This document shows positions 7,642-64,000 of a stretch of DNA of 64,000 nucleotides, in pieces. The notes below the pieces were generated by a model. The model was not told the DNA's origin. It saw only the letters and a list, made by a program, of their open reading frames with translations, and ran no database searches. The stretch's first letter is position 1, and each line of letters begins with the position of its first letter. A program made the position numbers and the translations under genes. Origin of the DNA: a virus (lineage: Duplodnaviria > Heunggongvirae > Uroviricota > Caudoviricetes); IMG/VR virus record IMGVR_UViG_3300048904_000202, positions 68,007 through 132,006 of that record; one strand, written 5' to 3'.

Positions 7642-7890
7642 CCCGAATGGGGTGCAAATGGGGTGCAAATCCGGCTTTGTTCTGGGTAGCGGCAGGGGTT
7701 TTCAGGAGAGAAACCGAGGGGAGAAGGGCCTTTTAGGCCAAAAACACTGCCTCCCGAAGGCAAGAGCCGTCAAAGTGAATCACTCCAGCGGCTCTCAAAA
7801 TTGGCGGTTTTCTGCGGGTTTCAGGAGAGGTGCTTCTGAGGCCTGTCTTACTGCACCCCAAATGGGGTGCAAATGGGGTGCAACATTTAG
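7641..7890. repeat. att-like region with nested direct repeats (candidate integrase arm-type sites)
   Basis: Two copies of CCCCRAATGGGGTGCAAATGGGGTGCAA (7641-7676, 7855-7890) bracket two copies of GGGTTT(T)CAGGAGAG (7696-7712, 7816-7830); gene-free, abuts integrase 3' end. Confidence 0.5.
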
Positions 7891-9296
7891 GCCGCTTTGA
7901 GGTGCTTCACCGCGTCCTCGGCGGTCTTTTTCGTTTTGGCGCGCCGGGCATTCCGGGCAGCGTTGATCTGTTTGCGGCGCTTCTCGGCCGCAGCTTCGCG
8001 CTCTTCGGCCGTCATGCCCTGTGCCACGTTGAGACGGGTGAAGTGATCCGGCTGTACGTCGAGGCCGGCTCGCTCGACGATTGTCAGCTTGCCTTTCTCG
8101 CCATTCGCGACGGCGAACTTGGCGCACCACGCGTCGGCCGCCGCATTCACTTCGTCCCAGATATCGGTCAGACCTGCCTTCACCGATGCCATCTTCTTGG
8201 GGTTGTAGTGCTTGTAGATCGCGCTGGTTGAGTTCTCGCCGATATGCCCCATGAGGCGGCTGATCTGCGTCTCGTCGCACTCGTTCCATTCCAACATCGA
8301 CGCTACCGTGTGACGGATCGTCTTCGGCACCACGTCCGGTCCGAAGCCGAGAACCTCGCGCATCGTGTTCCAACGGGTGGTCAGGCGCTTGAACCGATTG
8401 CCGTCCTCATCTTTGACCCACGGGCCGGTCCAGCCCTCCATCAGGGCGCTGATGCCGGAGATCGCCGGCACGACGGGGTTGCGCTTCTTCGTGAGCGGGG
8501 CGTCCTTGGGCTGGAGATCGAGCAGATCGAACTCAGGCTTGAACTGATCCTCGACGATGAACTTGAGCGCCGCCTCCGGGCGCATCGCCGTTGCGAGTTG
8601 GAGCAGGATGAAGTGCCAAAGCGGTTCGTCCGAGCGTGCAAACCCGATCATCGCTGAAAGCTCGGCCATGGACAGGACTCGGTCGCGGCGCTTTGGCTTG
8701 ATCTTGCTCGTGAGCTTCTTGCCCGGACCGGGAGCGATAGTGGCGCGCTTCTCTTCAACCGCGTGGTTCAACGCCGCCATGATGATCTGGATATTCTTCT
8801 TGAGCGAGGCGTCGGCCAGCCCTGCGGAAGAGTTGCTGTACTCCTTGCCCTTCCAGACGATCGAGTAGCTGTGCGGCTTCGAGCGCCACCGATGCCAACG
8901 CGCCCATACAGCCGGCGTCAGTTCGGTGAACTTGCAGGCGATACCTGCTTCATCCTGTTTGAGAAACGCGATGAAGGAACGCAGGATCGAGGAGATCGCG
9001 CCAGTTTCCTGTTCGTCGATCGTTTCGCACCCATGCTCATCGTAATAGCGAAGCAGTTCGACGACGACCGATACCTCGGCGTCGTTGTTCTTGGGTGCGT
9101 GCGCGTTGATCCGCGTTAGATGCGCCTCAATGACCTGCTTGGCTTCGGCTACATCCCGGCAACGAGTGCTTCGATACCGATTGCGTCGTTTGTCGGGGTC
9201 GTACCACGCGATCTGCCAGATGTCGGGGGACGCGCCGTCGTCTCGCTTGTCGAGCCAGTAGTCTCCGACGATATGGGGGCTGTCTTCTCGTGCCAC
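7887..9296 (-). CDS. int: tyrosine-type site-specific integrase (P4-like)
   Basis: 469 aa; N-terminal arm-binding-like segment (YWLDKR...WQIAWYD), R..HxxR block (IRHTVASML), catalytic Tyr context YKHYNP; GTG start with GAGGAGA RBS. Confidence 0.9.
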   Translation of the reverse strand: MAREDSPHIVGDYWLDKRDDGASPDIWQIAWYDPDKRRNRYRSTRCRDVAEAKQVIEAHLTRINAHAPKNNDAEVSVVVELLRYYDEHGCETIDEQETGAISSILRSFIAFLKQDEAGIACKFTELTPAVWARWHRWRSKPHSYSIVWKGKEYSNSSAGLADASLKKNIQIIMAALNHAVEEKRATIAPGPGKKLTSKIKPKRRDRVLSMAELSAMIGFARSDEPLWHFILLQLATAMRPEAALKFIVEDQFKPEFDLLDLQPKDAPLTKKRNPVVPAISGISALMEGWTGPWVKDEDGNRFKRLTTRWNTMREVLGFGPDVVPKTIRHTVASMLEWNECDETQISRLMGHIGENSTSAIYKHYNPKKMASVKAGLTDIWDEVNAAADAWCAKFAVANGEKGKLTIVERAGLDVQPDHFTRLNVAQGMTAEEREAAAEKRRKQINAARNARRAKTKKTAEDAVKHLKAA

Positions 9297-15513: not shown

Positions 15514-16779
15514 TCACGCTGCCTCCTTTTCCTGAGTGATGATCTTCTCCAGCTTGCACCGATTCAAGCGCGTCTCCTTGACGCCCTTGTACTCGGCATG
15601 GTCCTTGACGGTCCCGACCAGTTTGACCCGATCGCCGCGACCGATCCCCTCGACGTTGACGCCGCCGGCCGAGGTCATCCACGACAGCTTCTCGCCCTTG
15701 TCGGTGAAGAAGGTGTAGACCGAGCAATCTCCGAAACGATCGGCCGGCAGTGCGCGGATAAAATCCACGACCGCCTCGACAGTGATGCGCTCGCCGGGTT
15801 TGCCGACATGCTGCGACGCCGGGCGGTCGGTGCCTTCCTTGGCGCGCCGCTCCGCCTCCAGCTTGCGGCCCAGAGCCCGCTCGTATGCCGGCACCGCAGA
15901 GCAGACATAGCCCATGCGGTTCGCCTTCACGTCGGTCGCCGCGAGGAAAAGCTTGAGATTGTGGAGGTAGTCGGACGGGCCGGGGACAAGCGTCTCTCCC
16001 CACGCGATCACCGCGTCGGCTCGCTCGTAGTGCTTCTGCTCATTGGCACGAAGCTCCGCAACCAGCGCGTTGTAGCGAGCCCGCTCATCCTTCGTGAATC
16101 CTACCTGATTGGTGGCGTACAGAAGAGCGACACGACCCTGCGTGGTGTCGCCGAAGTCGTGTCCGCCGCTCTTTGGAGCCCAGCCCCAAAGGTCGATCGC
16201 CGCAGAGGTCGCGGCCAGAAGCTCGCGAGGGATGCGCCACCAGTCACGGTAGGACGAAAAGCCCCAGCCGTCGTCCTTTTCGCCGTTGTTGTCGAGGCTC
16301 TTGGCCCACTGGAAAATCCACAGCGCCTTCTCGGGCGTGTCGATCCCTAGATAGTCGCGCAGGCAGGTGCGGCCGACGATGACCATTTTATCGTCCTCGC
16401 GGACGATGAAGCCATGGGCGCGGTCGCGGGCCGTATTGCAATGCTCGCAGGTGCCGGCCCAAGCTCGGCCGAGTTCGCCCACCGAGTCGTCGATGCCGGG
16501 CACCTTGTCCACGATCACACCGCCGGCCTCGCGAGTCAGGCGCGCCATCAGCGTGTGGTTGCCCACGCGCGGAGCTTCGCCTTCGACGGTCACGTCGATG
16601 AACCACTCGGTGTACTTCTTCTTCTCGCCGAAGAAGTTGATGGTCTCGCGCTCCTCGCCGCGCGGTTCCGCGAACGAGTAGGTGATGACGTGACCATAGC
16701 CGGCCGCCTTCTTGACCAGCTTGTCCAGCTTGGCCTTGGCAGCTTCCTCGTAGTCGGCCCTGATCGTAATCGTGGTCAT
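15514..16779 (-). CDS. hypothetical protein (421 aa)
   Basis: Long ORF starting directly after GAATCAGGGAGACACGCT leader. Confidence 0.6.
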   Translation of the reverse strand: MTTITIRADYEEAAKAKLDKLVKKAAGYGHVITYSFAEPRGEERETINFFGEKKKYTEWFIDVTVEGEAPRVGNHTLMARLTREAGGVIVDKVPGIDDSVGELGRAWAGTCEHCNTARDRAHGFIVREDDKMVIVGRTCLRDYLGIDTPEKALWIFQWAKSLDNNGEKDDGWGFSSYRDWWRIPRELLAATSAAIDLWGWAPKSGGHDFGDTTQGRVALLYATNQVGFTKDERARYNALVAELRANEQKHYERADAVIAWGETLVPGPSDYLHNLKLFLAATDVKANRMGYVCSAVPAYERALGRKLEAERRAKEGTDRPASQHVGKPGERITVEAVVDFIRALPADRFGDCSVYTFFTDKGEKLSWMTSAGGVNVEGIGRGDRVKLVGTVKDHAEYKGVKETRLNRCKLEKIITQEKEAA

Positions 16780-16861: not shown

Positions 16862-17065
16862 TTAGACGGCCTTTGGCCTTGGGTCGCCGCTGAGAATTAC
16901 GAACGGGTCATGGGTGCCGCTGCTGTTCAGTTCGTAAGCCACTTCCATAACCTCGTAGCTATTACCGTCGGCTAGATATACGATTTCCCGCACACGTGGT
17001 ACAGCAGGCGCGTGCATATCGCCGATCCATGAGTGTCCTTGCCGCATCAATTTAATCGCTATCAT
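16862..17065 (-). CDS. hypothetical protein
   Basis: 67-aa ORF between promoter cassette and an AT-rich spacer (17066-17147). Confidence 0.4.
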   Translation of the reverse strand: MIAIKLMRQGHSWIGDMHAPAVPRVREIVYLADGNSYEVMEVAYELNSSGTHDPFVILSGDPRPKAV

Positions 17066-17147
17066 GCTGCCCTCATTTATTATTTAAGCTCGTTTAGTAC
17101 ACATGTCCCTAAAGAGGTCAACGCGATTACATCAAATGGCGTAGCGT

Positions 17148-53620: not shown

Positions 53621-53955
53621 GCGAGCCTCCGCAGGTGCGCGACGACCGCCGGGTTTCCATTCGGCCACACGTTATTAGTCGGAATCAAATCGCGATCGTT
53701 GACGCGCCAGATATCCATGGATTGCTCTTTATCGAGCCCCACCGCGCGGTTGATGGTGTCGTAGCTTCTCGTACCGGGCGGTGAATCCACATTGGCTTCC
53801 AGAGCAATTCTCCCGAGGGCGCAAAAGCATTCCGCCAATGGTGATGTAGGTGAACACCGCTGACCAAGGACATCGATCGCCAGCGATCCGGCGATGTGCT
53901 TGTCCGGATTGGCTTCCAGCCAGTCGGCGGCGCGGAGGATAGCTTCCTTGTTCAT
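53614..53955 (-). CDS. paralog family member P4
   Basis: 113 aa; ORF-track start (54129) extends into the upstream gene, so start revised to MNKEAILRAADW. Confidence 0.55.
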   Translation of the reverse strand: MNKEAILRAADWLEANPDKHIAGSLAIDVLGQRCSPTSPLAECFCALGRIALEANVDSPPGTRSYDTINRAVGLDKEQSMDIWRVNDRDLIPTNNVWPNGNPAVVAHLRRLAA

Positions 53956-54704
53956 ACGAAATACGGTGTCCTGTCCTTGAACCCGTTGAGTGCCTTGGTC
54001 TCGCGAATGTATTCGTAGAGCTTGGCAAGTAGGTCCGGGTCGTGTTGGCGAGGATCGATGCGCGCGGTGAGGATCGCGTCGATCGCTTCGATGTTCTGGG
54101 CGGCGAGTTCGTCCCTGCCGCAAAAGCAATCGGGGATGCGGGCATATTCCTCTGCGACCGCCGGCACCTCAAAGAGGCGGCAGAGTTCTAGAATTTCGGT
54201 CTTCGAGAAGACATTGATCGGCTGGACCGACACGCTCTTGGCGAGTGCGGTATAGGTTCCCAACGCCTTCTCGGTGTTGTTCATTGTCCCTACGACCCAG
54301 AAGTTCTCACCGGGGTCGCGCACCGTGACCTTGACGCTACCGAACTCATCGACCGCGACGTGGTTTAGCGCCCGCAGGTGCAAGTCAGCCCAGCGCTGTG
54401 GGTCGAAGTTCCCGCCGAGTGGCGACAGACATTCTACCTTGGCGGACGGGCAATGCCGCGCCAGCCACCACAGAATGTTGGCCTCGAACCAAGTGGGCTT
54501 ACGCCGTTGGTGATCCGCATAGTGGATGCCCCAGACGCGATCGGCGATTCCCATAATCTCCGCCGCCTCATAGACGAGAGTGAAGGCGATGATGCTGTCG
54601 GTGCCGGACAGGCCCATGAGGAGGCCGGGGACCGGGGTCTGCGACATTCGCATTTTCGCGACGAGACGATCCCGCGCGCGGAGGAATTTGTCAGCGACGC
54701 TCAT
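53952..54704 (-). CDS. NadE-like PP-loop ATP pyrophosphatase (NH3-dependent NAD+ synthetase-like)
   Basis: LLMGLSGTDSIIAF matches NadE LVLGISGGQDS; later VVGTMNNTEKALGTYT matches NadE VVGTDHAAEAITGFFT; start revised to MSVADKF (ATGA overlap with P3). Confidence 0.55.
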   Translation of the reverse strand: MSVADKFLRARDRLVAKMRMSQTPVPGLLMGLSGTDSIIAFTLVYEAAEIMGIADRVWGIHYADHQRRKPTWFEANILWWLARHCPSAKVECLSPLGGNFDPQRWADLHLRALNHVAVDEFGSVKVTVRDPGENFWVVGTMNNTEKALGTYTALAKSVSVQPINVFSKTEILELCRLFEVPAVAEEYARIPDCFCGRDELAAQNIEAIDAILTARIDPRQHDPDLLAKLYEYIRETKALNGFKDRTPYFV

Positions 54705-55078
54705 GCCGCGAGCTTCCGCAGGTACGGGATCACATCCGGATTGCCGCGCCATAGCGGCTTCTCGGCGGTCTCCATGGTGTCCACGTCATAACGTTCATTG
54801 ATCGCATCATTGAGCTTGACGATCGCGGCGAACTGCGTGCCGTCGAGGCCGGAGATGTGGTAGAACCACCGGCGGTTGTCGCGATCGACGCCGTGCATGG
54901 AAGTCGGGGCCTCGCCACACTCCTTGGCAATGCGACCGATGGCGCAGAAGCACTCGGCGTCAGGGTGGTTGGGACCAACATAGTCACCGGCGGCGTTGGC
55001 CGCGTAGAAGGCGGCCATGTGCTTGTCGGGGTTCGCTTCCAGCCAGTCGGCGGCGCGGCGGATAGCTTCCTTGTTCAT
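54701..55078 (-). CDS. paralog family member P3
   Basis: 125 aa; shared N-terminus MNKEAIRRAADWLEANPDKH, CFCAIGRI, C-terminus YLRKLAA. Confidence 0.55.
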   Translation of the reverse strand: MNKEAIRRAADWLEANPDKHMAAFYAANAAGDYVGPNHPDAECFCAIGRIAKECGEAPTSMHGVDRDNRRWFYHISGLDGTQFAAIVKLNDAINERYDVDTMETAEKPLWRGNPDVIPYLRKLAA

Positions 55079-55410
55079 GCGAGTAATTCCCTGAGGGTGG
55101 CGGCCATGTATCGGGCGGCGGTTTTTGGCGGCATCGCCTCGACGACGGCGTCGTTGATCTCGGTCAGCCTATCCAAAGTCTCGAAGGACAGGCCGGTGAC
55201 GCGAGGAAACAGTTCTTGGGGCCGGTGTGCGACTGTCGCCTTGACGCCAGTCTCGTGAATCAATCGACCTACCGTGCAAAAACACACGGCGAGGCTTCCG
55301 GTCGGTCCTGTCCTGCGGCCCTCCGCAGTGCGGGCGAAATCACCGGCAAGCAGCTTGTCGGGGTTACGCTCGATCCAGTCGGCGGCGCGGCGGATTGCTT
55401 CGACGTTCAC
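55075..55410 (-). CDS. paralog family member P2 (most diverged)
   Basis: 111 aa; GTG start in GTGA overlap; MNVEAIRRAADWIERNPDK...CFCTVGRL...LRELLA. Confidence 0.55.
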   Translation of the reverse strand: MNVEAIRRAADWIERNPDKLLAGDFARTAEGRRTGPTGSLAVCFCTVGRLIHETGVKATVAHRPQELFPRVTGLSFETLDRLTEINDAVVEAMPPKTAARYMAATLRELLA

Positions 55411-55685
55411 GCGGTCACCTTGGCATTGTCGAGGAGGGCGATCATGTTCCGAAGCGCCATGGCATGGCGTTCGAAATAGCCCAGTCGGAGCATATTGAAG
55501 TCCCGCTCCCGGATGTAGAATCCGACACTAGACGAGAAGGCACTCCGCTCTGCTATGGCGATAATGTTGTTCGCCATCTGCGTGTGGGCGCGGCTGTTAC
55601 GTCCCTTGTCTTCGGCGTCGGTAAGCATCTGCTCCAACGCCTCACGGTCGTTCGCGGCGTAATCTCTGGGATCATAATATTTCAC
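55407..55685 (-). CDS. hypothetical protein
   Basis: GTG start in GTGA overlap with upstream stop; ORF-track start overlaps neighbour by 100 nt. Confidence 0.4.
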   Translation of the reverse strand: MKYYDPRDYAANDREALEQMLTDAEDKGRNSRAHTQMANNIIAIAERSAFSSSVGFYIRERDFNMLRLGYFERHAMALRNMIALLDNAKVTA

Positions 55686-56074
55686 GCCGCGAGCCTTTCC
55701 TTGATGTGTGAGGCGTAGACCGCTTTGCCCCGGATGCGACCGCGCGCCGCCGGGTGGACGATCTGGATATGCGGTGTCGCCCACCGGCGAAGATGTGCGG
55801 CGACCTTCTCGCCCATCGCGACAACCGTCCAGCCGGCGCGGTGTGCCTGATCGACGACATCGCCGCTGCGGACGCGCGGCAGTTCGATCGCGTCAGGGTG
55901 GTCGCCGAACAGGTTGAAGAATTGGACACACGTCGTGTCGGTCGGATCGATCCCGAGCGGCTTGAGCGCGTCGAAGAGTTGTTTGGCTGCCAGACCGCCG
56001 TCCTGCCACGTGATGTTCTTGGCGTGGGCGGTTGGGGAGGGCTTCTCTCCTACGAAGAAGTATCGCTGGGTCAT
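55682..56074 (-). CDS. small protein with UDG-superfamily-like motifs
   Basis: 130 aa; FFVGEKPS (cf. GE[AG]PG) and IVHPAARG (cf. HPAA/HPSP); ends ...KERLAA like the paralog family. Confidence 0.4.
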   Translation of the reverse strand: MTQRYFFVGEKPSPTAHAKNITWQDGGLAAKQLFDALKPLGIDPTDTTCVQFFNLFGDHPDAIELPRVRSGDVVDQAHRAGWTVVAMGEKVAAHLRRWATPHIQIVHPAARGRIRGKAVYASHIKERLAA

Positions 56075-56385
56075 GCCGCGAGTTTCCGCAGATACGTGAT
56101 GACGGTCGTCTTGCTGCTGGCAGTGTCGTTCATGGACCAGATGTCCGAGGACTGGTCAAAGGTCAGACCGGCAGCCTTCTGGATAGGCTCATAGCCGCTG
56201 ATGCGGGGGATCACATGGACGCCGGCTTCCTTCGCAATGCGGCCGAGCGCGCAGAAACATGTCGCTCGTGAAGATGTCGGCGAGACGGGAGTTCCGAGGT
56301 CCGTAGTCGCTAGGTCCCCTGTGATATGCTTGTCGGGATTTGCTTCCAGCCAGTCGGCAGCGCGGAGAATGGCGTCACGGTTCAA
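56071..56385 (-). CDS. paralog family member P1
   Basis: 104 aa; TTG start in TTGA overlap; MNRDAILRAADWLEANPDKH...CFCALGRI...YLRKLAA. Confidence 0.55.
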   Translation of the reverse strand: MNRDAILRAADWLEANPDKHITGDLATTDLGTPVSPTSSRATCFCALGRIAKEAGVHVIPRISGYEPIQKAAGLTFDQSSDIWSMNDTASSKTTVITYLRKLAA

Positions 56386-56738
56386 AGGTGGCTCCCTTCG
56401 TTAAGATCATTGAGGAGGCTGGCGAACTTCTCCGCCCAGCGCAGGCCGCGAAGGGTGGGTTCGAACCGGGCGACAATACCGTTACCGGGCAAGAAGTGCG
56501 GGTCGAGGATGCGCCGCGAACGCGGGTCCCATTCGGTCACCAACACCTTCTTGCCCTCGAAGTTGGTGCAACCGGGGTAGCTGATCATCGACACGAACAG
56601 GTCGCCGACTGGCTTAACCGTCTCGACGACGAAGTTGTCCGGCGTCGGTGCAGGTCCGGGCTGGTTGGCCGGCGGGTCCCAGATCGTGCGATTGCCGGCG
56701 GCCGAGCGCAGACCAGCGGAAGCGAACAGGCTGCCCAT
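56382..56738 (-). CDS. hypothetical protein
   Basis: 118-aa ORF. Confidence 0.45.
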   Translation of the reverse strand: MGSLFASAGLRSAAGNRTIWDPPANQPGPAPTPDNFVVETVKPVGDLFVSMISYPGCTNFEGKKVLVTEWDPRSRRILDPHFLPGNGIVARFEPTLRGLRWAEKFASLLNDLNEGSHL

Positions 56739-57031
56739 CAGACGAGACTCCTCAGCGAGGTAGCCAGCGCCTCACGCTCCTTGGTGAGGGTGAGGGCCTC
56801 TTGTGCCCTGTTGCTTCCCTGACGGCGGGCCTCACGGGCCCAATCCTCGTGGTCGTTCCATTCCCTGAGGTGACGCCGTTGTTCGTCCCTCGCCGATTCG
56901 ATCAGGCGATCCAGTTCTGCGATCCGCTGTTGGATGCCGGCACGAGCCGCCGCCAACACGTCCGCCGAGAGTCCCGTCCGAGCTACAACAGGGGTGGGAG
57001 CGCTGTTGCGGCGCTTTCTGAGCGGCCACAT
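56738..57031 (-). CDS. hypothetical protein
   Basis: Start revised to MWPLRKRR (TAATG overlap); a 59-aa ORF fills 57031-57210. Confidence 0.4.
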   Translation of the reverse strand: MWPLRKRRNSAPTPVVARTGLSADVLAAARAGIQQRIAELDRLIESARDEQRRHLREWNDHEDWAREARRQGSNRAQEALTLTKEREALATSLRSLV

Positions 57032-57209
57032 TACGCCGGCACCATACCGGGCTGAGCGACGATGATCTCGACGCCGTGGGGCACCGTGATATCCTGTCCG
57101 CGATCGTACTGGCGCTGAGCGTCGGCGCACAGACGGACGCGCTCGAACAGGCCTTCACGGGTGACGGGGTTTGGTCCGGGGAACCGGAGCATGACGTTGC
57201 CGGTACGCA

Positions 57210-57842
57210 TCAGTCACAACCCCGGCACGAGAAGTCGATCGTGCCACGCGCCAGCTTGGTGCCGAGAAGCGCGTCCATCTTGTCCCAGAACTCGTCGTAG
57301 GAGTGGTAGTGATTGATCCACCACGGTTCATCATCGGTGGTTGACCAGCGCATAGCGTCGCTGATCATGTCGTCGTAGGGGACGCCGGCATCGCGAGCGA
57401 AATTGCGCAACCACAACATGGCTTCGAAATGTGCGGATCGGCTGTCAGAGCCGGCAGGCGCGGTTTGTTCGGGTGCCGCAAGCGCTACATCGGACGGTGC
57501 GAATGCCGGATGATCCCAGACGTGGCGCAGCGTTGAAATCTGGCCGGGATTGAGCAGCATGAGGAAGCGCTCGCCCTTGCGGACATTGCACTTGAGGTAC
57601 GGATCGACGACGCCGAGCGCGTGACGAGTGGTCATGCCCGAGTGGCGGTCACCACCATGCGGCGCGGCGACGGCCGTACCGTCTTCGAGCAGACCGATCG
57701 GACAGCCGGGTTTCAGTTCCTCGGCGGCGGTGACGGGCTCGACCGCGATGTGGATCGCGTCGCGCTTGACGGTGTGATCGATGATGCATCCCAGCACGCG
57801 TAGGGCGTCGGTGTCGGGTGTGCGGGTGTCGGCGGATGCCAT
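57210..57842 (-). CDS. hypothetical protein (210 aa)
   Basis: ORF with 1-nt overlaps at both ends. Confidence 0.5.
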   Translation of the reverse strand: MASADTRTPDTDALRVLGCIIDHTVKRDAIHIAVEPVTAAEELKPGCPIGLLEDGTAVAAPHGGDRHSGMTTRHALGVVDPYLKCNVRKGERFLMLLNPGQISTLRHVWDHPAFAPSDVALAAPEQTAPAGSDSRSAHFEAMLWLRNFARDAGVPYDDMISDAMRWSTTDDEPWWINHYHSYDEFWDKMDALLGTKLARGTIDFSCRGCD

Positions 57843-59116
57843 TAAATGCCTCCTTCTTGAGCTATGTCCCAGCGCCGGCCGGCGCGAGGATCGGGTTTCT
57901 TTTCAGGCGGAGCGCCTCGTTGATCATTGGCGCCGCGTTGGTATTTCGCCTTGGACGCTTCGATCAGGTCCTTGGTGTCCTTGAGCATTTTGCGCTTGCC
58001 TATCTGGAAGTGCGGGTGATCGGGCTCGCGGCGGCGCGCCTCTTCCTCGGAGATGAACTCGCGCTTGGGCTTGGCGGCTAGACGTTCGCGCTCGCGCTCC
58101 AGCCACGCGTCGTTCTCGGCGTCGCGGGCCGCCTGCTGCTCACGCAACCGGTTCTCGCGGACCTGCTCCTCGACATCGGGATCGTCCTTGAACGCATCGA
58201 CGATGATCCGCGCGATCCGCGACGAGGCAGGACCGGCGGCCGCCAGTTCGTTACAGGCGTCGATCGCGTGATCGAGACGATTATGGGCGTGGATGCGGTT
58301 GCGCTCACCACGCTCCATCATCGGTTCGCGCGCCTTGCGGTTGAAGATGATATAGGGCGCGGACACCTGTTCCTCGCCCTTAGGCATGAAGCGGACCTCA
58401 TAGTCGCCGGCCCGGTAGTGGACCTCGCCGAGCGCCGGTTTTGGATCAGGCGCGATCTCGTAGAAATAGAGAGCGTCGCGCTCCGCATCATAGATCGAGG
58501 GGTAAATGACGGGCTGGCCGTTATCGTCGATCGCGACATAGAGGCCGCGTTCGTCGAGGATCGTCACCGCGTACTGGTTGACGAGATGTGGGAGATCGCC
58601 CGTCTGGTTGTTTCCACCCCGCGCCGCTCGGCCGCGCCTCTTCGCCTCGTTGGTGATGCAGCGCCAGACCTGCGCGATCGGGTTCGTGCCATCGACACAA
58701 ATCTGAAAGCGACTGGTGTTGAACCCATAGCGCGGCATCCGCTTCTGCGCCTTGGGACCGGGCTTGCCGGCCGTGGGCTTGTTCCTCGATCCCTTGGGCC
58801 GGCCGCGACCGCGCTTGGGGGTTTCGTCAGTGGCCGCAGGAGTCGCGGGATTGCCATAAGTCGATGAGCCAGATGGCGGCGCCTTAGTGGTCTTCGTGAC
58901 ATAGACCGCGAGGGACGCGTCGTTCGCCACAGTATCACGGGTGATCTTCTTCATCCCGCGCCGTGCGGACGCTTCGTCGGCGAAACCACGGATACGGCGT
59001 TCGCTGCCATAGAGCGGCTGGCGGTTGATCGTATGGACCTCGACCCAGTACGGATTCGCACTGGCCGGCACATGCACGAGCCGGTGGAGTCCATCACTGG
59101 TTAGGGGTTCACTCAC
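57842..59116 (-). CDS. AT-hook DNA-binding protein next to the iteron array (candidate replication initiator or regulator)
   Basis: 424 aa; GTG start; PKRGRGRPKGSRNKP AT-hook; first gene of the leftward block, about 200 bp from the iterons. Confidence 0.55.
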   Translation of the reverse strand: MSEPLTSDGLHRLVHVPASANPYWVEVHTINRQPLYGSERRIRGFADEASARRGMKKITRDTVANDASLAVYVTKTTKAPPSGSSTYGNPATPAATDETPKRGRGRPKGSRNKPTAGKPGPKAQKRMPRYGFNTSRFQICVDGTNPIAQVWRCITNEAKRRGRAARGGNNQTGDLPHLVNQYAVTILDERGLYVAIDDNGQPVIYPSIYDAERDALYFYEIAPDPKPALGEVHYRAGDYEVRFMPKGEEQVSAPYIIFNRKAREPMMERGERNRIHAHNRLDHAIDACNELAAAGPASSRIARIIVDAFKDDPDVEEQVRENRLREQQAARDAENDAWLERERERLAAKPKREFISEEEARRREPDHPHFQIGKRKMLKDTKDLIEASKAKYQRGANDQRGAPPEKKPDPRAGRRWDIAQEGGI

Positions 59117-59149
59117 GATTGCGACTCACGGCTCCGATGTTGATGGAGA

Positions 59150-59185
59150 CTAACTATCCATGATTCGGTGATGCGTCAAGCTGCA
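59150..59185 (-). promoter_or_regulatory. leftward promoter TTGACG-N17-TAGTTA
   Basis: rc: GCTTGACGCATCACCGAATCATGGATAGTTAGTC upstream of the AT-hook gene. Confidence 0.4.
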
Positions 59186-59324
59186 TGTGAAACCGGGTTC
59201 GGGTCGAGAATGCCTGAAATGCGCGCTCGCCGGGATCATCACTCGCTGGGTGGCAGGTTATCCATTTTTATCACAACAGGTCGGCCGCGAATTGAGGTTC
59301 CGATATGCCGGGTTGCCATGGTGC

Positions 59325-59434
59325 CGTGATGACATGAGGCCGTGATGGTCAGTTGCGCGTGATGATGATGGCCGTGATGGCGCGTTGGGCGTGATGATTT
59401 GTGGAAATGAAGGGGTAAATAGTGGGGCGTGATG
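59325..59434. repeat. iteron array: six copies of (G/C)CGTGATG(A/G) at 15-17 bp spacing (candidate origin of replication or operator array)
   Basis: CGTGATG begins at 59325, 59341, 59358, 59373, 59390 and 59428; located in the gene-free divergent region. Confidence 0.6.
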
Positions 59435-59589
59435 GGTTGGGTGGGATGCAAAAACCGCAGAAATCCGCCATTTTCTAGCTTTTTCCGGGCTTTCTTACAC
59501 CGCGCTCCAACTTTTCCTTTTCCATTGCATCAGTCCGCCGGTGAATTGGGGTAGCGGTTACCGGTGCCCTGTGCGGTCAGCGAGGCCCT

Positions 59590-59660
59590 GATGTGGGTAC
59601 TTCTCTATTCTACTTTCTTTTATAAAAGAGATAAATATATACACATACACACAAGACTGG
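59590..59660. other. AT-rich block (possible DNA-unwinding element)
   Basis: TTCTCTATTCTACTTTCTTTTATAAAAGAGATAAATATATACACATACACACAAG inside a genome that is otherwise over 60 percent GC. Confidence 0.45.
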
Positions 59661-59744
59661 AGCGAGACCGGCCGCAGAGCTAGGGTTCCGCTCCGAACCT
59701 GTTTATTATCCCGACACCATATCGCAGAGAAAAGCCGGAACGAG

Positions 59745-59830
59745 CCGATTTCGCTTGATCCGAGGGCGTTAGTCTGGCTAACCATTGGTCCATCGAGACT
59801 AACAGTCAGCCTCGATCAACACTCAGGATC
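59745..59830 (+). promoter_or_regulatory. rightward motif-B-like promoter for the plus-strand operon
   Basis: GATTTCGCTTGATCC (plus strand) matches the TTTCGCTTGAC core of motif B; about 90 nt upstream of the first plus gene. Confidence 0.35.
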
Positions 59831-59841
59831 ACATCACGGCT

Positions 59842-60183
59842 ATGGATCAGCACGGCTACATTCTCAAGGGCAACAGCAAGACGGCGCCCACTGACTACAT
59901 CCCCTCCCTCATCGGTGTCGACGAAACACAGACCAACGCCAGCCGGGGCGACCCCTATTTCGAACGGGTAGACATCGCCGATCGCCGGATCAGCAGTCTG
60001 TCGGTTTCGCGCTGGGTCAGCTACGATAGCTTGCCGCTCGAATACCGCGATCCGATCCTCGCCGTCCAGTCACCGCACGGCGCCTATTACATCCCGGCCA
60101 GCGAGCTTCACGAGATCGCCGCGTTCCACCACGATGATGACACCATCGAGATGCTGGCGGCGCTCAAGGTGCTGCCCCGGTGA
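59842..60183 (+). CDS. hypothetical protein
   Basis: 113-aa ORF, first gene of the rightward block. Confidence 0.45.
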   Translation: MDQHGYILKGNSKTAPTDYIPSLIGVDETQTNASRGDPYFERVDIADRRISSLSVSRWVSYDSLPLEYRDPILAVQSPHGAYYIPASELHEIAAFHHDDDTIEMLAALKVLPR

Positions 60184-60500
60184 CCATCCCGGCCGAAGAA
60201 ATGCTTCGGGTCGCAACCGAGGCGAACATCCTCAAGATCATGGGTGAGCGGCAAATCCGCTCGCTGACGATCGATTATATCCCGGCGCGTGGGCAGATCA
60301 TCGTCCCTCGATTGGATGAAGATGACGACAGCCTCACCGCGCCGCGCCCGACCATCTATCCGCTGACCTATCACCTCGAAGACGCTGTGTTCGGCGTCGT
60401 CCTGTATGTGGCCCTGACCTGTCAGGGGAAGGTCATCGTCAATCCGTTCCCGTTCGATAGTTGGGAACACTTGGCGACGTGCGGCATCGTCAAACGCTGA
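60180..60500 (+). CDS. hypothetical protein
   Basis: GTG start in GTGA overlap. Confidence 0.45.
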   Translation: MTIPAEEMLRVATEANILKIMGERQIRSLTIDYIPARGQIIVPRLDEDDDSLTAPRPTIYPLTYHLEDAVFGVVLYVALTCQGKVIVNPFPFDSWEHLATCGIVKR

Positions 60501-60510
60501 GAGGACCCCT

Positions 60511-60819
60511 ATGGCGAACGAGAACATCGCCGAGCGCGAGGAACGCCGAAACACCTTCTATCGCATCGGCGGCTTCCGCCATTTCCGCGAGGTCAGGGTG
60601 CCGTTGCTGCGTCGCTACATCGACGCGGACCACAATGTCATGGAGTTTGAGCCGATCTATCCGGACCAGCCGGAATATCACGGTTACGCGCCATTCGACT
60701 TTCGTCTCGCGTTCTTGACCGTCGAGAGCGACGTGTTGGCGTGCGTGGTATCGGGCGGCTTGGTCATCGTCGATCCATGGTTGTGGGAAGGGTACGACAA
60801 CCTTCCGTTCCATCGCTGA
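60511..60819 (+). CDS. hypothetical protein
   Basis: 102 aa with RBS GAGAGGA. Confidence 0.5.
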   Translation: MANENIAEREERRNTFYRIGGFRHFREVRVPLLRRYIDADHNVMEFEPIYPDQPEYHGYAPFDFRLAFLTVESDVLACVVSGGLVIVDPWLWEGYDNLPFHR

Positions 60820-61259
60820 TGTTTAGCTTTCCGGTCACAGTACCGTTCCGCGATCCGGAAGGTGTGTTTCCCGTGGACCTATCGATTTGCGTCGACAATG
60901 TCCTCAAGGTTACCCCTCTTGACAAAGATCATAGTTTTGGTGTAGAGTCTGACACACTCTACTCCTGCCTGCCGTCCTGCGAGATACTTTTCGAGGACGG
61001 CCGCAAACTCCCGGTCATGGAAACGGCGGCGACGATCAATCGCTACCTCGACCTGTACCGGCAGATCGAGAGCTTCTACACAGCGCCGGCCACGCCCGCT
61101 CGAAGTTCAGCACAAGGCATCCGCTCCCAGCATTTGCGAACCGAACGGCCTGACGCCGTGCGGGTCCACCCGCTGACCGGAGCGACGGAGGGAGTAGTCG
61201 TCCCTCTCTTTGGCCGAACCTCCCCATGCGCTTCATCGGAGGCATCGACCCCGGACTAA
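60819..61259 (+). CDS. hypothetical protein
   Basis: Start revised to MFSFPVTVPF (TGATG overlap). Confidence 0.4.
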   Translation: MFSFPVTVPFRDPEGVFPVDLSICVDNVLKVTPLDKDHSFGVESDTLYSCLPSCEILFEDGRKLPVMETAATINRYLDLYRQIESFYTAPATPARSSAQGIRSQHLRTERPDAVRVHPLTGATEGVVVPLFGRTSPCASSEASTPD

Positions 61260-61795
61260 CCGGGGCGCTCGCCGTCCTCGATTTCGACCTAGCCTGCCTG
61301 CACCTCTGGGACACCCCGACTGTCTCGGTGCAGGTAGGCGACAAGGTACGCAAACGCGTTGACCCTATCGCCTGTGCCGAGGCGGTAGGGCGTTTCCCAT
61401 TGGACTCCTCGCTGATCGAGAATGTCCACTCAACACCGAACGACGGTCACGCCGGTGCCTTCACCTTTGGCAAGGCGACCGGGATCATGATCGGTGTCTT
61501 TGCCGGGCTCGACTTCCCGCTCGGCAGCGTCGCTCCCGCAAAGTGGAAAATGGCGATGCAGGTTCCGGCCGACAAAGGCGATGCCATGCGTCGAGCCTCA
61601 GAAATGTTCCCGCGCTGTACCAAGGCTTGGGCACGCAAAATGGACAACGGTCGCGCCGAGGCGGCCATCATCGCGCTCTTCCACGCGATCTCGCTGGGTC
61701 TCCAACCCACCCGCCCGTTCGACCTCGGTCTCGTGAACGGGAAACCCTTCATCTCCTCCCCACCGAAAGCGCCCCGTCGTGCCCGAACTCACTAA
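61226..61795 (+). CDS. RuvC-like Holliday junction resolvase (phage-type)
   Basis: MRFIGGIDPGLTGALAVL matches RuvC motif I (GIDPG..G.A); 189 aa; sits just before the terminase genes. Confidence 0.75.
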   Translation: MRFIGGIDPGLTGALAVLDFDLACLHLWDTPTVSVQVGDKVRKRVDPIACAEAVGRFPLDSSLIENVHSTPNDGHAGAFTFGKATGIMIGVFAGLDFPLGSVAPAKWKMAMQVPADKGDAMRRASEMFPRCTKAWARKMDNGRAEAAIIALFHAISLGLQPTRPFDLGLVNGKPFISSPPKAPRRARTH

Positions 61796-62324
61796 CCGTC
61801 GTCAGGAACTGTTTGCCCGTCATCTCGGCGAAGGCGACCACACCATGACGCAGGCGCTGGCCTACGAACTGGCCGGTTACACACCGTCAGCCTCGAACGC
61901 GAGCGTCTTGGCCAACAAGCCGGAGATCGCGGAGCGCATCAAGGAAATCCGCGCCGAGAAGGAACGTCGTGAACTGGAGTTCCGCGTCCGCCTCCACGAA
62001 GCCGGTCTCGACGAGAAAGACCCCGAGACAGCCAAGCGCGTCGTGATCGAATGGAACGACAATGTCGTTCGCGACATGCTGTCCGAGAACGCCCGGCTCG
62101 CACAGGTTGCGGGACAGTTTCAGGCAGCCAAGGAGTCGATCAAGCTGATCGGCGACAGCCTCGGTACCTTCGATAAGGCGACCGCCGCCGACAACAAGAA
62201 ACTCCCGGCGCCGGCCGGCAGCCCGCTTCAAGTCAGTTTCAATCTCAACGGCGCGCTCGAAGGCGCTGCCGCGTCCGTCGAAGAACCGGCCGACGACAAT
62301 CCGCTGGCTCCCCGAAAGAAGTAA
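61779..62324 (+). CDS. terminase small subunit
   Basis: N-terminal LTNRRQELFARHLGEGDHTMTQALAYELAGYTPSASNASVLANKPEI fits the TerS HTH-type N-domain; GTG start overlapping ruvC-like stop. Confidence 0.7.
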   Translation: MPELTNRRQELFARHLGEGDHTMTQALAYELAGYTPSASNASVLANKPEIAERIKEIRAEKERRELEFRVRLHEAGLDEKDPETAKRVVIEWNDNVVRDMLSENARLAQVAGQFQAAKESIKLIGDSLGTFDKATAADNKKLPAPAGSPLQVSFNLNGALEGAAASVEEPADDNPLAPRKK

Positions 62325-62327
62325 CTC

Positions 62328-64000
62328 GTGTCCGAGACAGCAGAACAGAAAAAGGACCGACTGCGTACCAGTGAAAAGCTCCTCAAGGCGCTTTCCGCTG
62401 AGGTAGAAGAATGCCTCGATCGTGGAAAGCCCATGTCCGAGAAGGCGTACAAGCAGTTGGTCGCGATCAGCGGCACGACAAACTTGGACGGCCAGATGCT
62501 CGCGCTGGACCATTTCATGGAAGAGACCGAGCGCGAACTTACCGAGGTTTGGACCGGTCTGGCGAAGAACTCATACCACCACTTCTACGAGTGGATGGCG
62601 CGAAACGAAGGCGACGACGAGGAAGGCTACACCATGTCGCCGCACCAGCGGCTGATCGGTGATCTGCTCATGTCGTCGGCGTCGAAGGAGACCATGCGGT
62701 TCATGCTCTCCATGCCGCCGGGCCACTGCAAGTCGACCCATTCCTCGCACCACTTCCCTGCGTGGTGGATCGGCCGCAACCCGCGCCGCATCTTCCTGCA
62801 AGCCGGCCACAGTCAGGACTTCGTGTCGAACGAGCTTGGCGCCAAGGTCAAGTCGATCATCGACAGCGAGGATTACACCGCCGTCTTCCCGACGATCAAA
62901 GTCCGCTCCGACATGCGAGCCAAGGACTATTGGGGGCTCACCAACAAGAAGGGCAAGTACGTCGCCAAGGGCGCGGGGCAGGGCATTTCTGGCTTCCGTG
63001 GTCACTATGGAATGGTCGACGATCCCTACGCCAGCCGCGAACACGCTGAAAGCGCCACGATCCGCGAGAAGGTGTTCAAGTGGTATTCAGACGATTTTAG
63101 CACCCGACTTCTGCCGGGCTCGCCGCTGGGAATTATTATGACCCGGTGGCACTCTGATGACCTCTGCGGACGTATTACAGATCGCGAAGCAAAAGAACTT
63201 TTGGAGGCCCAAGAAAAGGCGCAAAAACTTCTCCTCGAAAATATCGCGGAAAACGAGCCGCTTAGGGGCCGTTACCGTTTCGAGATAATTAATCTCCCGG
63301 CGATCTGCGAAGACGAGGACGATGTTCTAGGCCGCGCGGTTGGCGAACCTTTGTGGCCCGAGGTGTTCAATCTCGATGCTCTGACAAATCTTCGAGCAGA
63401 CATGACGGGGCCGTCGTGGAACTCCCTCTATCAGGGAACGCCCATCGACATCTCCGGCGGCGTCGTCGCGGGCGACTGGTTCAAGCGCTACACGAAGCTG
63501 CCCGGCACGATGGAAGGCAACGCGCCGACCAACCAAATCCGGCGCACGACGGTGTCGGTCGACGCGGCCAACACGGCGAAGGAACGTAGCGACTACACGG
63601 TCATCACGGTCTGGATCGAGGACATGGTGAAGAACCACTACCTCGTCGATGTGGTCCGCAAGCAGATCGAGCTTCCCGAACTGACGACCGAAATCGCTCG
63701 CGTCTGCAAACGCTACAACGCCGACGCGCTGCTGGTCGAAGCCAAGGGTAACGGTCTCGCCTACATCCAGTCGAAGCGCGATGGCGGAGCCCCGGCGCCG
63801 ATCATCTCGATCGAGGTGGGGCAGGCGTCGAAGCAGTTCCGTTTCGACGAAGTGTCGCCGATGATCGAGGGTGGTCAGGTCTATTTGCCCGAGCGCGCCT
63901 CGTGGCTGCCGGACTATGAGAAGGAACTGATCGGCTTCCCGAACGCGAAGTACGACGACCAAGTCGACTCGACCTCGCAGTACCTGAAATGGGCCAAGGG
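62328..64000 (+). CDS. terminase large subunit (partial, continues beyond window end)
   Basis: Open frame without a stop to position 64000, hence absent from the ORF track; Walker A-like LSMPPGHCKST, later TDDP/nuclease-region-like blocks; GTG 62328 sits in frame 3 nt after the TerS stop, or ATG 62433. Confidence 0.8.
   Translation, partial: MSETAEQKKDRLRTSEKLLKALSAEVEECLDRGKPMSEKAYKQLVAISGTTNLDGQMLALDHFMEETERELTEVWTGLAKNSYHHFYEWMARNEGDDEEGYTMSPHQRLIGDLLMSSASKETMRFMLSMPPGHCKSTHSSHHFPAWWIGRNPRRIFLQAGHSQDFVSNELGAKVKSIIDSEDYTAVFPTIKVRSDMRAKDYWGLTNKKGKYVAKGAGQGISGFRGHYGMVDDPYASREHAESATIREKVFKWYSDDFSTRLLPGSPLGIIMTRWHSDDLCGRITDREAKELLEAQEKAQKLLLENIAENEPLRGRYRFEIINLPAICEDEDDVLGRAVGEPLWPEVFNLDALTNLRADMTGPSWNSLYQGTPIDISGGVVAGDWFKRYTKLPGTMEGNAPTNQIRRTTVSVDAANTAKERSDYTVITVWIEDMVKNHYLVDVVRKQIELPELTTEIARVCKRYNADALLVEAKGNGLAYIQSKRDGGAPAPIISIEVGQASKQFRFDEVSPMIEGGQVYLPERASWLPDYEKELIGFPNAKYDDQVDSTSQYLKWAK

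What the first reader, a model, noticed from the sequence alone, without database searches (positions are those of the whole stretch)
59325..59660. Iteron array plus AT-rich block in the divergent control region: candidate replication origin
Six copies of (G/C)CGTGATG(A/G) occur within 110 bp, starting at 59325, 59341, 59358, 59373, 59390 and 59428, with 15-17 bp spacing. A 70-bp AT-rich tract (59590-59660) follows in a genome that is over 60 percent GC. The array lies between the leftward promoter TTGACG-N17-TAGTTA (about 59150-59185) and the rightward motif-B promoter (about 59745). The adjacent first leftward gene (57842-59116) encodes an AT-hook protein, RGRGRPKG. The geometry is that of an iteron-type origin with its initiator. 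Alternatively it could be an operator array of the lysis/lysogeny switch.
Basis: seen in the sequence. Interest (0 to 1): 0.7.

Follow-up and report, generated by a model that had tools for sequence, protein, structure and literature searches.

The report
Conserved GTGATG array plus AT-rich block
The repeats and the AT-rich block are real and conserved in about 13 related large virulent phages of sphingomonad bacteria, so this is a genuine protein-docking DNA element, but the sequence cannot decide between a replication origin and a transcription or packaging control site.

Summary
Six exact CGTGATG copies lie on the + strand at the stated coordinates. They sit on an 8-bp lattice of about 12 units (59301-59397, plus 59428). 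The chance of six copies in 110 bp is about 5e-14 per position. The AT block 164 bp to the right is the lowest-GC stretch of the 64-kb window.

The window comes from a Lacusarx-like, phiCbK-related phage with long terminal repeats. Its relatives are reported as virulent. About 13 distinct relatives keep the same layout, although their DNA is only about 70% identical even in genes. The layout is a few inverted copies, 5-10 direct GTGATG copies, a spacer, the genome's only strongly AT-rich element, a hairpin with a T-run, and a sigma70-type promoter.

The neighbouring AT-hook protein belongs to a small orphan family that is always encoded within 2 kb of the array. It has no detectable initiator fold.

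Smaller clusters of the same motif lie after terL and upstream of phoH. Together with this array they bracket the packaging operon and the terminal repeat, in this phage too.

No conserved DnaA boxes were found and GC skew is uninformative. A lysis/lysogeny switch is not supported, and the site is not a genome terminus.

My estimates are: regulatory nucleoprotein array about 0.38, replication origin about 0.30, packaging or terminal-repeat processing about 0.15.

The parts
59301..59397 (+). Main tandem array of about 12 units on an 8-9 bp lattice. Five are exact CGTGATG (59325, 59341, 59358, 59373, 59390), alternating with degenerate units such as CGATATG, CGGGTTG, CATGGTG, CATGAGG and CGCGTTG. 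A 32-bp super-repeat is present.
   Evidence: conserved in about 13 phages
59428..59434 (+). Sixth exact CGTGATG copy, the right-hand outlier of the array.
59237..59243 (-). Inverted, degenerate copy (AGTGATG on the minus strand) to the left of the array. Relatives carry 1-3 intergenic inverted copies at this position.
   Evidence: (I6)
59151..59179 (-). Leftward sigma70-like promoter TTGACG-N17-TAGTTA. A GTGATG copy (59168-59173) lies in its spacer.
   Evidence: In L050 a copy also lies between a TTGACA and the gene start. Promoter function is inferred, not shown.
59448..59479 (.). 32-bp element GCAAAAACCGCAGAAATCCGCCATTTTCTAGC (A-run, short hairpin, T-run). It is present in the opposite orientation in Lacusarx and L017.
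   Evidence: by direct comparison of the sequences
59533..59551 (+). Conserved spacer block GTCCGCCGGTGAATTGGGG (consensus CGCYRGTGAATCGG), about 50 bp left of the AT block.
59598..59652 (.). AT-rich block (24% GC). It is the lowest-GC DNA of the window. It sits at -241 to -248 from the ATG of the rightward gene in 12 of 13 phages. Its conserved core is TTATWAAAAGWATATAATATAC.
59657..59709 (+). GC-rich hairpin (CTGGAGCG...CGCTCCG) followed by a T-run (TGTTTATTAT). A hairpin plus T-run 45-70 nt after the AT block is seen in all nine relatives folded.
   Evidence: Shuffle z-scores are weak and there is no consensus structure.
59755..59803 (+). Rightward alphaproteobacterial sigma70-type promoter region (TTGATC-N16-GCTAAC, and GGCTAACC...GAGACTAAC aligned with TTGAC-N16/17-GCTAAC in relatives).
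   Evidence: Function is inferred.
59832..59856 (-). Inverted copy CATCACGGC ten bases before the ATG of the rightward gene, plus a degenerate second copy CAGCACGGC 16 bp on.
   Evidence: D7, I1, I14. Not conserved in relatives.
57842..59116 (-). First leftward gene, encoding a 424-aa protein. It has an N-terminal beta-beta-beta-alpha domain (res 6-72), a disordered basic linker with the AT-hook RGRGRPKG (about res 77-130), a conserved core (131-350, motif NPIAQVWxC) and a C-terminal long helix. It belongs to an orphan family.
59842..60183 (+). First rightward gene (113 aa), conserved in the clade. It heads the operon with RuvC (61226-61795), TerS (61779-62324) and TerL.

Best explanation
The array is a multi-site docking platform for one sequence-specific DNA-binding protein. 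The heptamer (C)GTGATG is laid out on an 8-bp lattice, so many copies of the protein would bind side by side and cooperatively.

I think its most likely use is control of transcription at the boundary between the long leftward operon and the rightward packaging operon. In this reading the bound array would repress or activate the flanking promoters. The unique AT-rich block 164 bp away would be the activator-dependent promoter or melting element. It has a TATAAT-like core and no -35, and is followed by a hairpin and a T-run.

The same protein would act at two smaller motif clusters. One lies after terL, ahead of the terminal-repeat genes. The other lies ahead of phoH, portal and the structural genes. 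These are the other two boundaries between transcription units around the packaging and terminal-repeat segment.

The best candidate binder is the neighbouring AT-hook protein, which would then regulate its own operon.

Shown: the array, its lattice, its conservation, selection on the core, the second and third motif sites, and the linkage of the gene to the array. Inferred: that a protein binds, which protein it is, and the effect on transcription.
For: (1) The core is under selection. In 13 phages the GTGATG core is invariant while the spacers between copies differ, for example L050 against L054.

(2) Spacings cluster at 8, 14-17, 23-25 and 31-32 bp. In the window the units are contiguous at 8 bp. 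From my own knowledge, this is the pattern of cooperative tandem binders such as MetJ (8 bp) or omega (7 bp).

(3) Single copies overlap promoter-type positions. One lies in the leftward promoter spacer at 59168-59173, one lies 10 nt before the rightward ATG, and one lies between TTGACA and the gene start in L050.

(4) Motif clusters occur only at three non-coding regions, each followed by an operon: this site, the post-terL gap and the phoH upstream region. Of 20 Lacusarx intergenic regions, these three hold 9, 3 and 6 copies and the others hold 0-2.

(5) Orientation is consistent. CATCAC lies on the sense strand of the operon that follows: the leftward operon here, the terminal-repeat genes, and phoH.

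(6) The AT block keeps a fixed distance (-241 to -248) from the ATG of the downstream gene. It is conserved in sequence, not just in composition, with a TATAAT-like core and a hairpin plus T-run after it.

(7) The gene for the AT-hook family lies within 2 kb of the array in every phage examined.
Against: - Most copies lie 120-280 bp from the leftward promoter and about 320-450 bp from the rightward one, so they do not act as simple operators.
- An array of 10-13 units is large for a regulator.
- The AT block is unique in the genome, whereas promoters of one class usually recur.
- It has no -35, and the strict promoter scan finds nothing.
- The promoter assignments rest on consensus only.
- No ribbon-helix-helix or helix-turn-helix fold was found in the neighbouring protein.
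- Nothing here measures binding or transcription.
Confidence: 0.38

Rival explanations
1. Replication origin. An initiator, possibly the AT-hook protein, would oligomerise on the GTGATG array, bend the A/T-tract spacer and melt the unique AT-rich block. Replication forks would then leave in both directions, co-oriented with the divergent operons. The smaller clusters would be auxiliary or autoregulatory sites, as crr is for P4 or oriR for SPP1.
For: - A tandem direct-repeat array lies next to the only strongly AT-rich DNA of the window and of the whole 130-kb Lacusarx genome.
- The architecture and internal distances are conserved in 13 phages.
- The site lies between divergent operons.
- A DNA-binding-type gene is linked to it.
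- A cis element present once per genome fits an origin better than a promoter class.
- No origin is known for phiCbK-like phages, which are reported to replicate as episomes.
- From my own knowledge, short-motif arrays next to AT tracts between divergent promoters are typical of SV40, of P4 ori/crr and of the lactococcal c2 origin.
Against: - No conserved DnaA boxes (1 mismatch or fewer) in 13 intergenic regions.
- The AT block is 164 bp from the array rather than abutting it.
- The replication genes lie 50-80 kb away in Lacusarx.
- Cumulative GC skew peaks here instead of reaching a minimum, although skew follows coding strand in these phages.
- The motif clusters flanking the terminal repeat are not predicted by this reading.
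Confidence: 0.3
2. Packaging or terminal-repeat processing site. The motif clusters, together with the GGGACCC arrays, would be recognition sites for the small terminase or an accessory protein. That protein would mark the segment from the packaging operon to the right boundary of the terminal repeat, for concatemer cutting or for duplication of the repeat.
For: - The site lies 2.4 kb upstream of terS, at the head of the RuvC-TerS-TerL operon.
- Motif clusters occur only between this site and the phoH upstream region. They bracket the packaging genes and the terminal-repeat region in Lacusarx, in XM05, in uncultured relatives and in the window's own phage.
- Site 2 lies at the approximate right boundary of the Lacusarx repeat.
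- CATCAC copies accompany GGGACCC arrays in both boundary regions.
- From my own knowledge, oppositely oriented clusters of a short motif resemble the hexamers of P1 pac.
Against: - The main array is not at a terminus. In phiCbK the left end lies in terL codon 652, and in Lacusarx the doubled-coverage region starts after terL, about 4 kb to the right of the array.
- The post-terL gap, the likely boundary, has only 1-3 copies and has its own different arrays.
- No binding by TerS was tested.
Confidence: 0.15
3. Leader-RNA or antitermination element, or a small RNA gene. The AT block would be a promoter, and the repeats (CAUCACG in the leftward transcript) or the hairpin plus T-run to the right would act at the RNA level.
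For: - CATCAC lies on the sense strand ahead of three long operons.
- A hairpin plus T-run follows the AT block in all nine phages folded.
Against: - No Rfam hit.
- RNAalifold finds no consensus structure.
- Single-sequence z-scores are only -0.3 to -1.9, and one is +0.8.
- Copy spacing and number vary freely, as expected for DNA sites.
Confidence: 0.06
4. Centromere-like partition site for an episomal form of the phage. A centromere-binding protein would coat the 8-bp lattice.
For: - The dense short-period array resembles plasmid centromeres such as parC and the omega heptads (my own knowledge).
- phiCbK-like phages are reported as stably inherited episomes.
Against: - No ParA, ParM or TubZ-type gene was found next to the site or among the large ORFs checked.
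- Lacusarx gave no lysogens.
Confidence: 0.05

Closest known systems
Iteron-type and viral short-repeat origins: lambda ori/O, SPP1 oriL+oriR/G38P, P4 ori+crr/alpha, the SV40 core origin and the lactococcal c2 origin (my own knowledge)
   Same: - Tandem copies of a short motif in a fixed orientation lie near an AT-rich tract.
- The site lies between divergent transcription units, next to a gene for a DNA-binding-type protein.
- Auxiliary motif clusters occur kilobases away, as in P4 crr and SPP1 oriR.
   Different: - The unit is 7-8 bp on an 8-bp lattice, not a 17-22 bp iteron.
- The AT block is 164 bp away.
- There are no DnaA boxes.
- The neighbouring protein shows no initiator, helicase or primase features.
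- Replication was not tested.
Tandem-operator and centromere arrays of small cooperative binders: MetJ 8-bp metboxes, omega heptads (WATCACW) of pSM19035, ParR/parC (my own knowledge)
   Same: - Contiguous 7-8 bp units occur in direct and inverted orientation, 5-13 per array.
- The arrays lie near promoters.
- The core ATCAC is even shared with the omega heptad.
- The gene next to the array could be autoregulated.
   Different: - No ribbon-helix-helix protein was identified.
- The neighbouring protein is 300-460 aa with a different predicted fold.
- Most units lie far from the promoters.
- No partition NTPase was found.
Central transcriptional control region of phage phi29 (p4/p6 complex between divergent early and late promoters) (my own knowledge)
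   Same: - The host is a virulent phage.
- Multiple binding sites for a phage protein lie between divergent operons of different temporal class.
- A higher-order nucleoprotein complex with bent DNA switches the promoters.
   Different: - The motif, the protein family and the number of sites are different.
- The temporal classes are only inferred here.
P1 pac and T7 concatemer-junction elements (my own knowledge)
   Same: - Short motif clusters in opposite orientation lie near terminase genes.
- Motif sites lie on both sides of the terminal repeat.
   Different: The main array lies about 4 kb from the inferred boundary of the repeat, and no cleavage or terminase-binding data exist.

Membership tests
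Iteron-type replication origin | Several same-orientation repeats that can bind an initiator | tested here: met
   There are 6 exact and about 6 degenerate units on an 8-bp lattice, conserved in 13 phages. Binding itself was not tested.
Iteron-type replication origin | AT-rich unwinding element directly beside the repeats | tested here: inconclusive
   A unique AT block exists. It is 164 bp from the array, and its position is fixed relative to the downstream gene.
Iteron-type replication origin | Adjacent gene for a recognisable initiator (Rep, O, DnaA-like, primase-helicase) | tested here: not met
Iteron-type replication origin | Host-factor sites (DnaA boxes) | tested here: not met
   TTATCCACA with 1 mismatch or fewer is found in only 2 of 13 intergenic regions, at unrelated positions.
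Iteron-type replication origin | Supports autonomous replication, or is the site of earliest DNA synthesis | not testable with these tools
   This needs a plasmid assay or marker-frequency data. GC skew is dominated by coding strand.
Operator or UAS array of a transcription regulator | Binding sites overlapping or close to the regulated promoters | tested here: inconclusive
   One copy lies in the leftward promoter spacer and one before the rightward ATG. The bulk of the array is 120-450 bp from the consensus promoters.
Operator or UAS array of a transcription regulator | The same motif at other regulated operons (a regulon) | tested here: met
   Clusters lie ahead of the terminal-repeat genes and ahead of phoH and the structural genes, and in no other intergenic region of Lacusarx.
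Lysis/lysogeny switch | Temperate phage with repressor, Cro-type genes and an integrase flanking the operators | tested here: not met
   The cultured relative is reported as virulent. No repressor-type domain was found in the flanking genes. The only recombinase-like ORF is 50 kb away.
pac/cos packaging site | Coincides with or adjoins the physical genome end | tested here: not met
   By literature and synteny, the terminal repeat starts at or after the 3' end of terL, about 4 kb to the right. Site 2, not this site, lies near a repeat boundary.
AT-hook protein | R-G-R-P core in a basic, disordered segment | tested here: met
   KRGRGRPKGSRNK lies in a segment with pLDDT below 50. An RGRP core is kept in window, P0002, XM05 and L010, and lost in Lacusarx, L012 and L013.
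AP2 / integrase-arm type DNA-binding domain (N-terminal domain of the 424-aa protein) | Three-stranded sheet packed on one helix, with similarity to solved AP2 domains | tested here: inconclusive

The most novel reading that the evidence does not exclude
The three GTGATG clusters are the main array with the AT block, the post-terL cluster and the phoH-upstream cluster. Together with the GGGACCC arrays they would form one system that brackets the packaging operon and the long terminal repeat. That system would serve as the so far unknown cis apparatus of phiCbK/Lacusarx-type phages for genome maintenance. It would be an origin, possibly coupled to a centromere or to the machinery that duplicates and delimits the 7-20 kb terminal repeat, and it would be run by an orphan AP2-like/AT-hook protein family.
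Probability: 0.15. Interest if true: 0.75.

Novelty: new variant of a known kind. Interest (0 to 1): 0.5.

Why it matters
No replication origin, packaging signal or temporal switch has been mapped for the phiCbK-like or Lacusarx-like large siphophages. Recent work reports that such phages persist as replicating episomes whose origin is unknown.

This element is the most conspicuous conserved non-coding feature of the clade. It comes with a defined motif, a candidate binding protein and two satellite sites. That makes the question directly testable by EMSA or ChIP, a plasmid origin assay, marker-frequency sequencing and transcription start site (TSS) mapping.

If it proves to be only a regulatory array, it is still a clean new example of a multi-site switch in a virulent phage. 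It would also give a first function to an orphan protein family.

Tried and rejected
- **RNA and tRNA scans.** An Rfam scan of the whole window and a tRNA scan found nothing.
- **Small RNA after the AT block.** RNAalifold gave no consensus structure, and single folds are not better than shuffles.
- **GC skew as an origin test.** Rejected as uninformative, because skew follows coding strand in the window and in the whole Lacusarx genome.
- **DnaA and CtrA boxes.** Neither is conserved. Only Lacusarx has a perfect TTAA-N7-TTAA in the AT block.
- **Family and sequence searches for the 424-aa protein and neighbours.** Pfam, PHROGs and PDB sequence searches found no family.
- **Structure prediction.** The first AlphaFold model, from a 4-sequence alignment, was too poor to use. 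The 49-sequence model was good but found no confident structural relative.
- **Motif scan of IMG/VR.** A scan for three closely spaced CGTGATG copies returned mostly unrelated coding repeats. Only clade members combine an array with an AT block.
- **Covariation test between protein and motif.** Not possible, because the motif is identical in all relatives.
- **Metagenome scan with PhoH.** It returned one locus, already represented.
- **Source contig look-up.** Looking up P0001 failed, but the RuvC look-up recovered the same phage.
- **attP reading.** Considered and dropped. The AT block is conserved across phages of different host genera and the clade is virulent.
- **Inverted copies in XM05-like phages.** The leftmost ones are not binding sites in their own right. 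They encode the WSDGIH motif and the start codon of the AT-hook gene.

Full report
**1. The observation.**
The window holds 27 copies on both strands against 15.5 +/- 3.7 in shuffles. No other place has four or more GTGATG copies within 150 bp. Six same-strand copies in 110 bp has a Poisson probability of about 5e-14 per position.

The array is larger and more regular than described. Units with 5 of 7 matches fill an 8-bp lattice at 59301, 59309, 59317, 59325, 59333 and 59341. The lattice continues at 59358, 59373, 59381 and 59390. TRF reports periods of 8, 16 and 32, and there is a 32-bp super-repeat of 83-86% identity.

The AT tract 59590-59660 is 31% GC, with a core at 24%, in a window of 59.9% GC. 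It is the lowest 71-mer and the only 60-mer below 30%. The TTGACG-N17-TAGTTA leftward promoter-like site and the RGRGRPKG AT-hook in the 424-aa ORF are both present.

**2. Where the window comes from.**
The DNA and proteins match Sphingobium phage Lacusarx and Erythrobacter phages XM05 and vB_EliS-L02, at about 70% nucleotide identity and only in genes. These are 130-152 kb phiCbK-like siphophages.

Lacusarx is reported as virulent. It has a roughly 10.5-kb direct terminal repeat that starts right after terL. In phiCbK the left terminus lies in terL codon 652.

Gene content places the window at the equivalent of Lacusarx 79.5-119 kb (RtcB, a recombinase-like ORF, NAPRTase, NUDIX, AAA/BCS1, SPFH). 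The region studied is the divergent point between a roughly 54-kb leftward block of mostly small genes and the rightward operon. That operon holds a 113-aa gene, two or three small genes, RuvC, TerS and TerL.

**3. Comparative anatomy.**
I read the homologous intergenic region in the following phages:
- XM05, Lacusarx and vB_EliS-L02;
- six or seven distinct IMG/VR contigs;
- one Logan contig.

Together with the window this makes about 13 distinct phages. All share the same order of parts:
- 1-3 intergenic inverted copies (CATCAC);
- 5-10 direct GTGATG copies;
- a spacer with A/T tracts and a conserved block CGCYRGTGAATCGG;
- a 50-55 bp AT-rich block at -241 to -248 from the ATG of the 113-aa gene (12 of 13 phages);
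- a GC-rich hairpin followed by a T-run;
- an alphaproteobacterial sigma70-type promoter (TTGAC-N16/17-GCTAAC-like) at -60 to -30.

Motif density in these regions is 10-15 per kb, against 1.2-2 per kb in the flanking DNA. The logo of 61 direct copies is kkGsgC-GTGATG-r. Spacings cluster at 8, 14-17, 23-25 and 31-32 bp. Between close relatives such as L050 and L054 the cores are kept while the spacers change. This is the signature of a protein-binding array.

In whole genomes the AT block is unique. It is the only 60-mer below 27% GC in Lacusarx, and it holds almost the only pure A/T runs of 12 nt or more in Lacusarx and XM05.

One caution applies. In XM05-like phages the two leftmost "inverted copies" are coding, covering the WSDGIH motif and the start codon of the AT-hook gene. 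In the window the 59092 copy is also coding.

**4. Further motif sites.**
Lacusarx has a second array of six CCATCACGsC copies, with a roughly 32-bp period, at record positions 17-185. It lies just right of the terminal repeat and upstream of phoH, portal and the structural genes.

XM05 and all clade members with a PhoH locus have a cluster there too, of the form [CATCAC x3-6][GTGATG x2-3]. It often abuts a 16-18 nt patch AAAAAWTATATAATAT, which matches the core of the site-1 AT block. PhoH loci outside the clade lack it.

A third, minor cluster of 1-3 CATCAC copies, always in that orientation, follows a GGGACCC array in the 1.4-1.5 kb non-coding gap after terL in every member examined.

A Logan contig 100% identical to window 53902-64000 extends 7.9 kb past the window. 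It shows both extra sites in this very phage:
- CATCAC x3 at about 64.35 kb in window-equivalent coordinates;
- five CATCACGG copies interleaved with GGGACCC at about 71.5-71.8 kb.

In Lacusarx, of 20 intergenic regions only these three hold clusters, with 9, 6 and 3 copies. The others hold 0-2. The motif therefore marks three non-coding regions that bracket the packaging operon and the terminal repeat. In each, CATCAC lies on the sense strand of the operon that follows. For the main array, that operon is the leftward one.

**5. The neighbouring protein.**
The 424-aa protein is a weak but clear homologue of Lacusarx gp112 (E 1e-11) and XM05_140 (E 2e-8).

The family is small. It has 4 clusters in the 5.8-billion-protein set and 54 representatives in the 1.84-billion-protein library. 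No member has a Pfam domain.

Its gene is the first leftward gene in most phages. In vB_EliS-L02 it lies 1.9 kb away.

AlphaFold with 49 sequences gives a mean pLDDT of 79. The model has these parts:
- an N-terminal beta-beta-beta-alpha domain with pLDDT above 90;
- a disordered basic linker carrying the AT-hook;
- a conserved alpha/beta core;
- a long C-terminal helix.

The protein is therefore a plausible DNA binder of unknown class. Nothing marks it as an initiator.

**6. Tests bearing on function.**
*Origin.* No conserved DnaA boxes were found. GC skew follows coding strand and the cumulative skew peaks here, so it neither supports nor refutes an origin. The replication genes lie far away, and no origin-binding protein is recognisable among them.

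*RNA.* There is no Rfam hit, no consensus structure and only weak z-scores.

*Packaging.* The main array is about 4 kb from the inferred boundary of the repeat. The two satellite clusters do lie in the two boundary regions.

*Transcription.*
- One copy lies in the leftward promoter spacer, and one lies just before the rightward ATG.
- A copy lies in a similar promoter position in L050.
- The AT block has a conserved TATAAT-like core, no -35 and a fixed distance to the downstream gene.
- The strict sigma70 scan calls nothing.

**7. Verdict.**
The element is real, conserved and almost certainly a multi-site protein-binding array coupled to a unique AT-rich element. Its function is not settled by sequence.

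I rank a regulatory nucleoprotein array first (0.38). It would control the leftward and packaging operons and, through the satellite clusters, the terminal-repeat and structural operons. This reading accounts for the three-site distribution, the orientation rule, the promoter-overlapping copies and the gene-locked position of the AT block.

A replication origin is a close second (0.30). It best explains why the AT block is unique in the genome and why the main array is so large.

A role in packaging or terminal-repeat processing is third (0.15). It is the reading that specifically predicts motif clusters at both boundaries of the repeat.

I found no description of this element in the Lacusarx, vB_EliS-L02, phiCbK, CtrA or pseudolysogeny papers.

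Noticed in passing
L180 10148-11536 (window-equivalent about 64.05-65.44 kb); Lacusarx L006 19462-21019; XM05 L001 12007-13526: The 1.4-1.5 kb non-coding gap after terL, the likely left boundary of the terminal repeat, carries its own conserved set of arrays. These are GGGACCC/GGGTCCC x3-7 at a period of about 24 bp, CtrA-like TTAACC/GGTTAA clusters, and GCCATTTT-containing repeats of 22-45 bp. GGGACCC also recurs in the phoH-upstream site, so it marks both repeat boundaries.
   Followed up: partly
window 59448-59479 vs L002 6655-6690 and L017: A roughly 30-bp element, GAAAATGGCGGATTTCTGCsGTTTTT (A-run, short hairpin, T-run), is present in the spacer in opposite orientation in the window and in Lacusarx/L017. 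That suggests an orientation-independent DNA site or a weak bidirectional terminator.
   Followed up: partly
window 54701-55078, 55075-55410, 56071-56385 (all minus strand): Three paralogous small genes (104-125 aa, 38-42% identical, all starting ...AIRRAADWxExNPDK) lie within 1.7 kb. Their function is unknown.
   Followed up: partly
window 7887-9296 (minus strand): A 469-aa ORF has weak tyrosine-recombinase (Phage_integrase, SAM-like) matches, in a phage clade reported as virulent. Lacusarx has the same (gp175, 'XerS').
   Followed up: no
window 59768-59803: In the window, the -35 TTGAC that is conserved in all relatives' rightward promoter is replaced by CTAACC. This creates the palindrome GTTAG-N5-CTAAC and a repeated GAGACTAAC (also at 59146-59154 near the leftward promoter). 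It may be a lineage-specific regulatory site.
   Followed up: no
window 17045-17115: This is the second-lowest GC stretch of the window (35% GC, containing ATTTATTATTTAA), in the gap between ORFs ending at 16779 and 17148.
   Followed up: no
XM05 L001 7241-7312: The deposited XM05_140 CDS seems to start too far downstream. The reading frame continues upstream to (V)MAGRGSLSKRTPLPIWSDGIH, matching the N-termini of homologues. Part of the annotated intergenic region is therefore coding.
   Followed up: yes
L111 9370-9460 (IMG/VR contig 3300008695_000043): An unrelated phage contig carries five CTCGTGATGAG-type copies in a short stretch. This may be an independent use of a similar motif. The context was not examined.
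   Followed up: no
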